Assembly (NCBI RefSeq): GCF_013167455.1
Contig: NZ_CP038328.1
DNA: 64,000 bases
DNA from: Escherichia coli O157:H7
GTDB taxonomy: Bacteria > Pseudomonadota > Gammaproteobacteria > Enterobacterales > Enterobacteriaceae
Reading direction: 5' to 3' (one strand)
Shown: piece by piece, positions 3,342 to 46,676 of the stretch
Numbering within the stretch: the first letter of the stretch is position 1
How the letters are laid out: the number at the start of each line of letters is the position of its first letter
Program-made: the position numbers and the translations under genes
The notes under the pieces: generated by a model
What the model was told of the DNA's origin: nothing
The model's input: only the letters and a program-made list of their open reading frames with translations
The model's database searches: none

Positions 3342-3504
3342 GGTCCAGCCAGAAGAGTAAGAGAAAGCACTATTTTACGCGTTACAGCGCTGCGACAATG
3401 GCCGGAAAAGACGCCTGGCAGGCGCTATTTCTTGCCATCTGTAGGTGTCAGAAATAGGGGGCTGTTCTTTGATTATCATTTTTATAACATTAAAGGGGTA
3501 TTTA

Positions 3505-3520
3505 TGTGATTTGTATCACA
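3505..3520. promoter_or_regulatory. CRP binding site (perfect TGTGA-N6-TCACA)
   Basis: tgtgatttgtatcaca upstream of azuC; a second near-consensus site tgtgatggttgtcata lies at 3535..3550. Confidence 0.6.
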
Positions 3521-3602
3521 TAAAGATTGATTTTTGTGATGGTTGTCATATTATAAGCGCAAAGACAATAACACCTGTATAACAAATGGTCGGAGTGCCG
3601 CG

Positions 3603-3689
3603 ATGAAACTGCGCAAAATCCTGAAAAGTATGTTCAATAACTATTGCAAGACGTTCAAAGACGTACCGCCAGGCAATATGTTCCGATAA
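3603..3689 (+). CDS. azuC: Small membrane-associated protein AzuC (28 aa)
   Basis: ATG..TAA encoding MKLRKILKSMFNNYCKTFKDVPPGNMFR, followed directly by an intrinsic terminator; too short for the 60-aa ORF track. Confidence 0.8.
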   Translation: MKLRKILKSMFNNYCKTFKDVPPGNMFR

Positions 3690-3690
3690 C

Positions 3691-3717
3691 AAAAAACCTG
3701 CTCCGGCAGGTTTTTTT
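3691..3717 (+). terminator. Rho-independent terminator after azuC
   Basis: aaaaaacctgctccggcaggttttttt: GC stem with 7-T run. Confidence 0.7.
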
Positions 3718-3803
3718 GTGTCCTGATGAGGGTGGATGTGACTATCGTTGAAGATGTGAAGCCGCTACTATAACGGCTTTCAAAATGCTATCAGGAGTTT
3801 ACG

Positions 3804-11810: not shown

Positions 11811-12589
11811 AACCTGTTCCTTATTCTGTGAACTTCAGGTGACATTAAAGCTTTACTCCTAATGGAGAAACGACGCAATCCCAACTCAGTCAAACAGGTA
11901 AATATTAGTCCGATTATTAGTAAAGACAATTAATCAATCACTCTCGGTGATCATATGATTTCAACTGTAATTATAAGAAAATAATGTACTGATTCCCCGC
12001 ATTAAACAAGTGGTTAATATATGCAAAACATTTTATTAACATTAAGTTGATTGTTGCCTTTCTTTGTATTTAATTAGTTTGTTGTGCGGTAAGTGTCTGT
12101 TTAAAAATAGCTTATCTGGTATTGCATGAAAGTGATTATTTATAGCAGATGATTATTTACGGTGAGTTATTTTAACTGTGCGCAACATCCCATTTCGATT
12201 ATTCCTGTTTCATTTTTGCTTGCTAGCGTAGCGAAAAACTTTTTAACAGATTGAAATACACCCAAAACAAAAGTATGACTTATACATTTATGTTAAGTAA
12301 TTGAGTGTTTTGTGTGATCTGCATCACACATTATTGAAAATCGCAGCCCCCCTCCGTTGTATGTGCGTGTAGTGACGAGTACAGTTGCGTCGATTTAGGA
12401 AAAATCTTAGATAAGTGTAAAGACCCCCTTCTATTTGTAAGGACTTATTAAACCAAAAAGGTGGCTCTGCTTATTGCAGCTTATCGCAACTATTCTAATG
12501 CTAATTATTTTTTACCGGGGCTTCCCGGCGACATCACGGGGTGCGGTGAAACCGCATAAAAATAAAGTTGGTTATTCTGGGTGGGAATA
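11811..12589 (+). promoter_or_regulatory. flhDC master-operon regulatory region and long 5' UTR
   Basis: 780-bp AT-rich intergenic region upstream of flhD; contains the CRP site at 12313..12328; no IS element present. Confidence 0.8.
12313..12328 (+). promoter_or_regulatory. CRP site of the flhDC promoter
   Basis: tgtgatctgcatcaca, perfect TGTGA-N6-TCACA; its centre lies about 270 bp upstream of the flhD ATG, consistent with the known -71.5 site and ~198-nt leader. Confidence 0.75.
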
Positions 12590-17951: not shown

Positions 17952-17979
17952 TTCTCCTGATTTCCTCAATTGAAATGAA

Positions 17980-18008
17980 CCCGATGATCTGCGCATCGGG
18001 TTTTATTT
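17980..18008 (+). terminator. Intrinsic terminator after cheW
   Basis: cccgatg-atctgcg-catcggg stem-loop followed by tttt. Confidence 0.6.
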
Positions 18009-18035
18009 CAATTTCGCGGCGGGTGGCATCAGCAA

Positions 18036-18062
18036 TAAAGTTTCCCCCTTCCTTGCCGATAA
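18036..18062 (+). promoter_or_regulatory. Sigma-28 (FliA) promoter of the tar-tap-cheRBYZ operon
   Basis: TAAAGTTT-N11-GCCGATAA is a perfect sigma-28 consensus about 30 bp upstream of the tar start. Confidence 0.8.
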
Positions 18063-31509: not shown

Positions 31510-32345
<836 letters not shown>

Positions 32346-36258: not shown

Positions 36259-36357
36259 GCCTGATGCGCTATGCTTATCAGGCCTACATAGTCCCTGCAA
36301 TATATTGAATTAGCAAGGTTTTGTAGGCTGGATAAGGCGTTCACGCCGCATCCGGCA
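36259..36357. repeat. REP elements between torZ and cmoB
   Basis: gcctgatgcgctatgcttatcaggcctaca and gtaggctggataaggcgttcacgccgcatccggca. Confidence 0.6.
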
Positions 36358-46439: not shown

Positions 46440-46676
46440 GTCGGATTGGTCGCTCGCACCGCATCCGACATTGGCAGTGTGCCTGATGCGACGCTATTCG
46501 CGTCTTATCAGGCATATACCAGAGATAGCGAACCGTAGGTCGGAAAAGGCGCTCGCGCCGCATCCGACATTGGCAGTGTGCCTGATGCGACGCTGTTCGC
46601 GTCTTACCAGGCCTACCAGAGATAGCGAACCGTAGGTCGGATAAGGCGCTCGCGCCGCATCCGACAAATGTGTTCA
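46440..46676. repeat. BIME/REP array: two direct ~100-bp repeat units plus a partial third
   Basis: Unit gctcgc(a/g)ccgcatccgacattggcagtgtgcctgatgcgacgct...cgtaggtcgga(a/t)aaggcg occurs at 46452 and 46551, with a partial copy at 46648. Confidence 0.7.

What the first reader, a model, noticed from the sequence alone, without database searches (positions are those of the whole stretch)
3505..3717. 28-codon azuC small protein with two upstream CRP sites and its own terminator
A perfect CRP palindrome (tgtgatttgtatcaca) and a second near-consensus site precede a 28-codon ORF that is immediately followed by an intrinsic terminator. This is a compact catabolite-regulated unit consistent with the dual-function AzuC protein / AzuCR RNA. 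Sub-60-aa genes like this are invisible to the ORF track.
Basis: partly seen in the sequence, partly recalled or inferred. Interest (0 to 1): 0.4.

Follow-up and report, generated by a model that had tools for sequence, protein, structure and literature searches.

The report
Known E. coli azuC/AzuCR small gene

Summary
There are two CRP boxes (3505-3520 perfect core, 3535-3550 one mismatch), a 28-codon ORF (3603-3689) and a strong hairpin plus T-run (3691-3717).

The segment is 100% identical to E. coli O157 chromosomes. It is identical to K-12 across the whole unit. RefSeq K-12 annotates both the CDS azuC (b4663) and the ncRNA azuR (b4434), which map to window 3561-3719. The peptide scores 75.9 bits against the NCBIfam AzuC equivalog (cutoff 30).

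In 61 of 80 yecJ-anchored enterobacterial loci the unit is conserved with clear footprints. Half-sites, -35/-10 and terminator stem are near-invariant while spacers are free. Box spacing is fixed at 30 bp, and third codon positions wobble.

One refinement: the boxes centre at about -48.5 and -18.5, over the core promoter, and published work shows that CRP represses azuCR (high in glucose, up in a crp mutant).

Three small additions came out of the comparison. A hairpin inside the CDS (3660-3682) is kept by compensatory synonymous changes. The gene occurs in more genera than the literature's wording suggests. The upstream palindrome coincides with a published FNR motif.

Novelty: already known. 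Interest: low.

The parts
3505..3520 (.). CRP box 1, TGTGAtttgtaTCACA (22-bp site 3502-3523), centred about -48.5 from the annotated TSS. It coincides with the FNR motif coordinates published for K-12 (1988042-1988058).
   Evidence: G-T-G-A and T-C-A-C are invariant or nearly so in 62 sequences while the N6 spacer is free. FNR coordinates come from PMC12266141 and were converted using the, 16 mapping.
3527..3532 (+). -35 hexamer TTGATT
   Evidence: Promoter scan, 9 of 12 matches with a 16-bp spacer. Conservation 0.97 across genera.
3535..3550 (.). CRP box 2, TGTGAtggttgTCATA, centred about -18.5. It lies in the promoter spacer and its right half overlaps the -10 hexamer.
   Evidence: Half-sites 0.99 and 1.00 conserved, spacer 0.68. 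Start-to-start distance to box 1 is 30 bp in 60 of 60 loci.
3549..3554 (+). -10 hexamer TATTAT
   Evidence: Conservation 0.98. It ends 7 nt before the annotated 5' end at 3561.
3561..3719 (+). AzuCR (IsrB/IS092; RefSeq azuR) transcript, 159 nt as annotated. The paper calls it 164 nt.
   Evidence: K-12 ncRNA azuR 1987843-1988001, mapped through an alignment identical over the whole unit. The TSS at 1988001 is stated in PMC8915982.
3572..3578 (+). Target of the FnrS sRNA 5' end (CACCUGU pairs with GCAGGUG)
   Evidence: PMC8915982 places it 25-31 nt upstream of the ORF and reports compensatory mutants. Duplex found, with fnrS taken from K-12. CACCTGC/T is present in 45 of 62 orthologues.
3592..3595 (+). 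Shine-Dalgarno GGAG, 7 nt before the ATG
   Evidence: GGAG lies 4-10 nt before the start codon in 59 of 62 orthologues.
3603..3689 (+). azuC CDS, 28 aa, cationic amphipathic peptide
   Evidence: (NF033642) and annotation. Codon-position conservation is 0.97/0.94/0.77. Hydrophobic moment is 0.53 against 0.23 +/- 0.12 in shuffles, net charge +6.
3642..3657 (+). Candidate AzuR seed, TATTGCAAGACGTTCA, complementary to cadA +2..+18. It lies inside the CDS. This is my inference.
   Evidence: The best local hybrids fall at 3631-3674 and over the cadA SD/start codon, which fits the paper's statement that pairing overlaps the CDS. The energies were not better than shuffles.
3660..3682 (+). CDS-internal stem-loop (codons 20-27), kept in other genera by compensatory synonymous changes. 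It is weaker in E. coli because of a C-A mismatch at 3667/3675.
   Evidence: RNAalifold. Pair counts: 3665/3677 AU 24, CG 11, GC 7, UG 2; 3668/3674 GC 46, AU 6. There are 26 double-change cells against 7.6 +/- 2.1 in shuffles (0 of 500), and slid controls give 0-1.
3691..3717 (+). Intrinsic terminator: stem 3691-3701 with 3706-3716 (GC core CCTGC/GCAGG), loop 3702-3705, T-run 3711-3717
   Evidence: Fold at -16.9 kcal/mol, z = -5.7. Stems 0.98 conserved, loop variable. The annotated RNA 3' end is at 3719.

Best explanation
This is the chromosomal azuC/azuR (AzuCR, formerly IsrB/IS092) gene of E. coli, lying between yecR and yecJ.

A sigma-70 promoter (-35 at 3527-3532, -10 at 3549-3554) starts a roughly 159-nt RNA at about 3561. 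The RNA ends at its own intrinsic terminator at about 3717-3719.

Two CRP boxes lie 30 bp apart, about three helical turns, so on the same face of the DNA. They are centred near -48.5 and -18.5. Box 2 sits on the promoter spacer and the -10 hexamer. When glucose is absent, cAMP-CRP occupies the core promoter and represses transcription. The RNA is therefore made mainly during growth on glucose.

The RNA has two jobs. It is the mRNA for the 28-aa cationic amphipathic peptide AzuC, which associates with the inner membrane and stimulates the glycerol-3-phosphate dehydrogenase GlpD. As the riboregulator AzuR, it uses sequence inside the ORF to pair with and repress cadA and galE mRNAs, so translation and pairing compete. 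Under anaerobiosis the FnrS sRNA pairs with the 5' UTR (3572-3578) and blocks AzuC synthesis.

Shown here:
- identity of the locus, its boundaries and the motif geometry;
- the conservation footprints;
- the coding signature;
- the FnrS complementarity;
- the terminator.

Taken from the literature:
- repression by CRP;
- translation of the ORF;
- the GlpD, cadA/galE and FnrS effects.

Inferred: steric occlusion of RNA polymerase by CRP at box 2, and cooperation with box 1.
For: Identity:
- The 601-bp query is 100% identical to O157 chromosomes and is found in 5419 of 5426 complete E. coli genomes, with azuC annotated under the match.
- It is identical to K-12 over the unit, where both CDS azuC b4663 and ncRNA azuR b4434 are annotated.
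- NCBIfam equivalog NF033642 scores 75.9 bits against a cutoff of 30.

Promoter and CRP geometry:
- Scan hit TTGATT-16-TATTAT.
- Box coordinates.

Footprints in 62 sequences:
- Half-sites score 0.90-1.00 against spacers at 0.58-0.68 and flanks at 0.46-0.57.
- GTGA is invariant in both boxes and the spacing is a constant 30 bp.

Coding signature:
- 25 of 28 third positions vary, against 12 of 28 at each of the first and second positions.
- The peptide is kept at 27-29 aa.
- Amphipathicity.

RNA-level constraint: covarying hairpin inside the CDS and a conserved 5'-UTR block that holds the FnrS complement.

Terminator.

Literature: PMC8915982 reports CRP-mediated repression, the SPA-tagged protein, GlpD binding, cadA/galE repression and FnrS compensatory mutants. 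PMC12266141 refers to two previously annotated CRP sites.
Against: - CRP binding and the sign of regulation were not tested here. They rest on Hemm et al. 2010 as cited in PMC8915982; the original paper is not held.
- IPOD-HR occupancy changes were reported mainly upstream of the annotated CRP sites.
- My in-silico test of cadA pairing did not beat shuffled controls.
- The full-length E. coli fold is not unusually stable (z = -1.5) and does not contain the CDS hairpin.
- Transcript length and TSS differ slightly between sources. RefSeq gives 159 nt with the ATG at +43. The paper gives 164 nt with the CDS at +40 to +126. The box positions are therefore good to about +/-3 bp.
Confidence: 0.95

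Rival explanations
1. The two CRP boxes activate the promoter, as at a class I or class II CRP-dependent promoter, so the unit would be switched on when glucose is absent, like catabolic operons.
For: The perfect consensus half-sites resemble strong activating sites. A reader might assume that 'catabolite-regulated' means activated.
Against: Relative to the annotated 5' end, the boxes centre at about -48.5 and -18.5. These are not the activating positions -41.5, -61.5 or -71.5. Box 2 overlaps the -10 hexamer and the spacer. PMC8915982 reports higher AzuC and AzuCR in glucose and elevated levels in a crp mutant.
Confidence: 0.03
2. The upstream palindrome (3505-3520) is mainly or additionally an FNR operator, shared or competed for with PhoP and NarP. 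In that case the 'two CRP sites' would really be one CRP/promoter site plus a multi-regulator operator.
For: PMC12266141 lists FNR motifs at K-12 1988039-1988058, PhoP at 1988046-1988063 and NarP at 1988060-1988076, and reports derepression when each is mutated. Converted through the, 16 mapping, the FNR motif is window 3504-3523, which is box 1. The site contains TGAT-N4-ATCA, the core shared by the FNR and CRP consensus sequences (established knowledge).
Against: All 62 orthologues keep G at 3506 (GTGA, CRP-type) and never T (TTGA, FNR-type). The same paper describes its new sites as lying 'further upstream' of the annotated CRP sites, so my coordinate conversion may not match their figure, which is not held. 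The NarP and far-upstream region is not conserved outside Escherichia (0.46).
Confidence: 0.3
3. The locus is only an mRNA for a small protein. The riboregulator (AzuR) activity would then be an overexpression artefact, with no RNA-level function selected.
For: My local pairing test against cadA was indistinguishable from shuffles. The whole-RNA fold is not significant. Rfam has no family for it.
Against: Compensatory changes at synonymous sites keep a stem inside the CDS. This is selection on the RNA beyond the protein code. The 5'-UTR block is conserved. PMC8915982 reports repression by a stop-codon mutant, compensatory mutations for cadA and galE, higher cadA-gfp expression in the deletion strain, and Hfq/ProQ co-immunoprecipitation.
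Confidence: 0.08
4. The locus is only a non-coding sRNA and the 28-codon frame is fortuitous.
For: It was first catalogued as an sRNA (IS092/IsrB), and RefSeq still carries an ncRNA feature.
Against: The third-position wobble pattern, the conserved start codon and SD, and the conserved 27-29 aa length across at least 14 genera. The NCBIfam equivalog match. The tagged protein and ribosome binding reported in PMC8915982.
Confidence: 0.01

Closest known systems
AzuCR (IsrB/IS092; azuC b4663 plus azuR b4434) of E. coli K-12
   Same: Identical sequence from CRP box 1 through the terminator, the same neighbours yecR and yecJ, and the same 28-aa product.
   Different: Nothing inside the unit. The window is an O157-type chromosome, with a few substitutions only in the flanks.
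Spot 42 / SpfP (spf) of E. coli
   Same: A small dual-function RNA of carbon metabolism. Its transcription is repressed by cAMP-CRP and it also encodes a very small protein (PMC8916003 abstract; CRP-repressed).
   Different: It is unrelated in sequence. SpfP is 15 aa and acts on CRP itself, whereas AzuC is 28 aa, membrane-associated and acts on GlpD. In AzuCR the pairing region lies inside the ORF.
SgrS / SgrT
   Same: An enterobacterial dual-function RNA linking sugar metabolism with a small membrane-acting protein.
   Different: In SgrS the coding and pairing regions are separate, and the RNA is induced by SgrR under glucose-phosphate stress. In AzuCR the two regions overlap and compete.
VcdRP of Vibrio cholerae
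   Same: A dual-function RNA of similar size encoding a 29-aa protein and balancing carbon uptake and metabolism (PMC8672173 abstract).
   Different: A different organism with no sequence relationship tested. Its coding and pairing regions are separate according to PMC8915982.

Membership tests
AzuC small protein (NCBIfam NF033642, equivalog) | HMM score above the curated cutoff | tested here: met
   75.9 bits against a cutoff of 30, E = 1.3e-21, covering residues 2-27.
AzuC small protein (NCBIfam NF033642, equivalog) | Same gene as the annotated azuC: sequence identity and yecR-azuC-yecJ synteny | tested here: met
   RefSeq azuC (WP_010723106.1; K-12 b4663) lies under 100%-identical matches, flanked by yecR and yecJ.
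AzuC small protein (NCBIfam NF033642, equivalog) | Evolves as a protein-coding frame | tested here: met
   Third positions vary in 25 of 28 codons, against 12 of 28 at each of positions 1 and 2. ATG or GTG start, SD and 27-29 aa length are kept in 61 loci.
AzuC small protein (NCBIfam NF033642, equivalog) | Amphipathic helix, membrane association and GlpD stimulation | not testable with these tools
   Only amphipathicity could be computed: hydrophobic moment 0.53, with 58 of 5000 shuffles at least as high. Membrane and GlpD data are from PMC8915982.
AzuCR/IsrB dual-function sRNA | Discrete transcript of about 160 nt with its own promoter and intrinsic terminator | tested here: met
   Sequence identical to the K-12 azuR feature. 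Promoter hexamers and terminator fold are present, and both are conserved. The transcript itself was not observed here.
AzuCR/IsrB dual-function sRNA | Base pairing with cadA and galE through sequence inside the ORF | tested here: inconclusive
   The best local hybrids map to 3631-3674 and to the cadA SD/start codon, but at -24.2 kcal/mol against -20.1 +/- 3.3 for shuffles. Full-length duplexfold output was uninterpretable.
AzuCR/IsrB dual-function sRNA | FnrS target in the 5' UTR | tested here: met
   The FnrS 5' end GCAGGUG is complementary to 3572-3578. CACCTGC/T is present in 45 of 62 orthologues. Functional proof is in PMC8915982.
AzuCR/IsrB dual-function sRNA | Hfq and ProQ binding | not testable with these tools
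   Literature only.
AzuCR/IsrB dual-function sRNA | Match to a curated RNA family model | not testable with these tools
   No Rfam 15 family reaches threshold on 3561-3719. No AzuCR/IsrB model appears to exist.
CRP-repressed promoter | Sites matching TGTGA-N6-TCACA | tested here: met
   0 and 1 mismatches. Half-sites conserved, spacers free, GTGA invariant.
CRP-repressed promoter | A site overlapping the core promoter elements | tested here: met
   Box 2 (3535-3550) lies between the -35 hexamer (3527-3532) and overlaps the -10 hexamer (3549-3554). It is centred at -18.5 from the annotated 5' end at 3561.
CRP-repressed promoter | CRP-cAMP binding, and derepression in a crp mutant | not testable with these tools
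   Reported by Hemm et al. 2010 as cited in PMC8915982. The original paper is not held.
Intrinsic (Rho-independent) terminator | GC-containing hairpin followed directly by a U-run at the RNA 3' end | tested here: met
   -16.9 kcal/mol, z = -5.7. The T7 run is at 3711-3717 and the annotated 3' end is at 3719. The consensus scanner missed it.

The most novel reading that the evidence does not exclude
AzuCR may carry a previously undescribed RNA module. This is a stem-loop inside the 3' half of the ORF (3660-3682), just upstream of the terminator, that is maintained across genera by compensatory changes at synonymous sites. It could be a ProQ- or Hfq-binding element or a stability element that helps decide between the mRNA and sRNA fates. 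In addition, the whole unit, with its invariant 30-bp twin CRP-box architecture, occurs in at least 14 enterobacterial genera, which is more than the 'limited number' stated in the literature. It has also been lost repeatedly (Salmonella, the C. freundii group, Buttiauxella, one Escherichia lineage).
Probability: 0.45. Interest if true: 0.25.

Novelty: already known. Interest (0 to 1): 0.1.

Why it matters
It matters little as a discovery. AzuC has been known since 2008-2010, and AzuCR as a dual-function RNA since 2022. It does show that a tool-less read can recover a gene shorter than 30 codons that ORF-length filters and Rfam both miss.

The comparative data give two modest leads for specialists. 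[quoted passage not shown]

Tried and rejected
1. Rfam, at E-value threshold on 2.5 kb and at gathering threshold on the whole window, has no family for AzuCR. The only nearby hit was sub-threshold STnc370 (37.6 bits against 54), on both strands, driven by an identical terminator stem.
2. I tested whether STnc370 occupies the azuC-less Salmonella locus. There were no hits in 6 azuC-less loci, so the similarity is incidental.
3. The consensus terminator scan missed the real terminator. It was replaced by folding.
4. Full-length RNA.duplexfold of AzuCR against FnrS, cadA and galE gave unrealistically long hybrids. Only the pairing at the FnrS 5' end was usable.
5. A sliding-window pairing test against cadA was not better than shuffles. 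galE was not pursued further.
6. Hemm et al. 2010 (PMC2798279) is not held, and no supplements are held for PMC12266141. The published CRP and FNR site drawings could therefore not be compared base for base.
7. The 48-codon extension listed by the ORF tool (TTG at 3543) is rejected. It starts upstream of the TSS, and the 5' UTR carries non-triplet indels among orthologues.

Full report
**Observation**

- CRP box 1 is TGTGATTTGTATCACA at 3505-3520. It matches TGTGA-N6-TCACA perfectly.
- CRP box 2 is TGTGATGGTTGTCATA at 3535-3550, with one mismatch.
- An ATG at 3603 opens a 28-codon frame ending at TAA 3687-3689. It reads MKLRKILKSMFNNYCKTFKDVPPGNMFR.
- GGAG lies at 3592-3595.
- One base after the stop comes AAAAAACCTGC-TCCG-GCAGGTTTTTT and the T-run 3711-3717. 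This folds at -16.9 kcal/mol, z = -5.7, unmatched by 200 shuffles.

The pattern-based terminator scan did not report the hairpin. I infer that the flanking A-run pairs with the T-run and leaves too few T's as a tail.

The number of CRP-consensus matches in the window (3 against 2.2 expected) is not remarkable in itself. What is remarkable is that two of the three sit 30 bp apart in front of this ORF.

**Identity**

A 601-bp query around the feature matches 5419 of 5426 complete E. coli genomes. It is 100% identical to O157 chromosomes. RefSeq annotates yecR, azuC ('stress response protein AzuC') and yecJ under the match.

In K-12 MG1655 the same DNA carries two features. These are CDS azuC (b4663, 1987873-1987959) and ncRNA azuR (b4434, 1987843-1988001). 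K-12 and the window are identical from upstream of box 1 to beyond the terminator. The annotated RNA therefore maps to window 3561-3719 and the CDS to 3603-3689.

The peptide scores 75.9 bits against the NCBIfam equivalog NF033642, whose cutoff is 30. Rfam 15 has no model that reaches threshold here.

**Anatomy relative to the transcript**

The promoter scan finds TTGATT (3527-3532), a 16-bp spacer and TATTAT (3549-3554). The -10 hexamer ends 7 nt before the annotated 5' end at 3561.

Box 1 is centred at -48.5 and box 2 at -18.5. Box 2 fills the promoter spacer, and its right half (TCATA) overlaps the -10 hexamer.

PMC8915982 gives the TSS as K-12 1988001, but it also speaks of a 164-nt RNA with the CDS at +40 to +126. 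RefSeq implies 159 nt with the ATG at +43. The positions are therefore good to about 3 bp, and either way box 2 lies on the core promoter.

**Comparative evidence**

I anchored on the neighbour yecJ and retrieved 80 loci from different enterobacterial species.

*Where azuC is present.* tblastn finds azuC about 110 nt upstream of yecJ, in the same orientation, in 60 loci, and further away in one more (Entomohabitans). The genera include:
- Escherichia, some Citrobacter, Enterobacter, Lelliottia;
- Kosakonia, Leclercia, Silvania;
- Pseudescherichia, Pseudocitrobacter, Pseudenterobacter;
- Huaxiibacter and Superficieibacter.

*Where it is absent.*
- Salmonella arizonae and diarizonae, where an RpiB-like ORF lies between yecR and yecJ.
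- C. koseri.
- The C. freundii group.
- Buttiauxella.
- One Escherichia lineage in which yecR and azuC are deleted, leaving a degenerate terminator next to ftnA.

*Conservation in the 62-sequence alignment.* The pattern is a classical footprint.

| Element | Conservation |
|---|---|
| Box 1 half-sites | 0.90 / 0.98 |
| Box 1 spacer | 0.58 |
| -35 hexamer | 0.97 |
| Box 2 half-sites | 0.99 / 1.00 |
| Box 2 spacer | 0.68 |
| -10 hexamer | 0.98 |
| Far upstream | 0.46 |
| Terminator stems and T-run | 0.98-0.99 |
| Terminator loop | 0.81 |
| Downstream | 0.57 |

- GTGA is invariant in both boxes.
- The box-to-box distance is 30 bp in all 60 loci in which both boxes matched the search patterns.
- In the ORF, third codon positions vary in 25 of 28 codons, against 12 of 28 at each of positions 1 and 2.
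- An SD is kept in 59 of 62 sequences.
- The product stays at 27-29 aa.

This is independent evidence that the frame is translated and that both boxes, the promoter and the terminator are functional.

**Mechanism**

PMC8915982 reports that:
- AzuC-SPA and AzuCR RNA are high in glucose and low in glycerol or galactose;
- levels rise in a crp mutant (citing Hemm et al. 2010);
- AzuC is an amphipathic, inner-membrane-associated peptide that co-purifies with GlpD and raises its activity;
- the RNA represses cadA and galE by pairing through sequence that overlaps the ORF, so that translation and pairing compete;
- the RNA binds Hfq and ProQ;
- the 5' end of FnrS pairs 25-31 nt upstream of the ORF to block AzuC synthesis, shown with compensatory mutants.

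My results fit each point that I could test.
- The box geometry is that of a repressor operator, not an activator site.
- AzuC residues 1-20 have a hydrophobic moment of 0.53, against 0.23 +/- 0.12 for shuffles, and the net charge is +6.
- FnrS (K-12 feature) begins GCAGGUG, which is complementary to 3572-3578.
- That heptamer lies in the best-conserved part of the 5' UTR. It is present as CACCTGC in 44 of the 62 sequences, and as CACCTGT only in the window sequence.

I infer that CRP bound at box 2 excludes RNA polymerase, and that box 1, three helical turns away, stabilises this. That step is not shown here.

The cadA pairing could not be confirmed statistically. The best local hybrids fall at 3631-3674 and over the cadA SD and start codon, but they are no better than shuffles.

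**Points beyond the literature I could read**

*(a) A conserved hairpin inside the ORF.* RNAalifold on 21 orthologues proposes a hairpin at 3660-3682, directly before the terminator.

On 56 distinct sequences, two of its nine pairs lie at synonymous sites and co-vary:
- 3665/3677: AU 24, CG 11, GC 7, UG 2, unpaired 12.
- 3668/3674: GC 46, AU 6.

There are 26 double-change cells against 7.6 +/- 2.1 in shuffles (0 of 500), and slid-partner controls give 0-1.

Three caveats apply.
- The changes cluster by clade.
- Escherichia has a C-A mismatch at 3667/3675.
- The hairpin is absent from the E. coli MFE, whose overall z-score is only -1.5.

*(c) Overlap with a published FNR motif.* PMC12266141 reports FNR, PhoP and NarP repressor motifs at K-12 1988039-1988076. 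By my coordinate conversion the FNR motif is box 1 itself. The invariant G at 3506 argues that the site is CRP-type, but dual use is possible.

**Verdict**

The one refinement is that CRP represses rather than activates.

This is a textbook-level, already annotated gene: novelty 'already known', interest low. The hairpin and the distribution data are minor leads, not a new system.

Noticed in passing
window 3660-3682: A stem-loop inside the azuC ORF is maintained across genera by compensatory changes at two synonymous-site pairs (3665/3677 and 3668/3674). It is not mentioned in the main text of the AzuCR paper. It is weaker in E. coli itself.
   Followed up: yes
L003-L082 (yecJ-anchored loci): azuC is present in 61 of 80 species loci, covering at least 14 genera. 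It is absent from Salmonella arizonae and diarizonae, C. koseri, the C. freundii group and Buttiauxella. In Salmonella (L011 1695-2333) an RpiB-like 212-aa ORF lies between yecR and yecJ instead.
   Followed up: partly
L003 2230-2420: Escherichia sp. MOD1-EC7003 has lost yecR and azuC. The start of ftnA abuts a degenerate copy of the azuC terminator (aaaaaaactgttccggctggtttttt) upstream of yecJ.
   Followed up: partly
window 3486-3523: The published FNR, PhoP and NarP repressor motif coordinates for the isrB promoter (K-12 1988039-1988076) convert to this stretch. The FNR motif therefore coincides with CRP box 1. A TACCCCT NarL/NarP-like heptamer lies on the minus strand just upstream and is conserved only in Escherichia.
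   Followed up: partly
window 3561-3724: The sources disagree slightly. RefSeq azuR is 159 nt with the ATG at +43. The paper states 164 nt with the CDS at +40 to +126, although it gives the same TSS coordinate (1988001).
   Followed up: partly
L035, L021, L047, L044, L042, L036, L032, L034 (Enterobacter clade); L013 (E. albertii): An Enterobacter clade uses GTG as the azuC start codon and has lost the FnrS-complementary heptamer (AAAGTTGTA in place of AACACCTGC). E. albertii also lacks the heptamer. The window and K-12 carry CACCTGT (a terminal G-U), where 44 of the 62 sequences have CACCTGC.
   Followed up: partly
window 3690-3803: azuC lies about 110 nt upstream of yecJ (DUF2766, function unknown), co-oriented, in 60 loci. 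In Entomohabitans it lies about 1.3 kb upstream. The scan found no plus-strand promoter between them, so terminator read-through into yecJ is conceivable.
   Followed up: no
window 12313-12328: This is the only other perfect TGTGA-N6-TCACA in the window (TGTGATCTGCATCACA). It lies about 270 bp upstream of the flhD start codon (12591), which is consistent with the known CRP site of the flhDC promoter.
   Followed up: partly
window 3412-3424: A small GC-rich hairpin followed by a T-rich run lies on the plus strand, inside the divergent yecR-azuC intergenic region, with no plus-strand gene upstream of it. Its meaning is unknown.
   Followed up: no
window 17971-18046 (-), 32037-32344 (+), 36280-36322 (-), 46538-46613 (+): Rfam gathering-level hits elsewhere in the window are C0465, MicL, ES036 (CssrF) and naRNA4 (CssrE). 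These are known E. coli sRNA and REP-type elements.
   Followed up: no
window 3685-3749 (-): A sub-threshold Rfam hit to the Salmonella sRNA STnc370 is caused by an identical AAAAAACCUGC/GCAGGUUUUUU terminator stem. STnc370 is not found at the azuC-less loci.
   Followed up: yes
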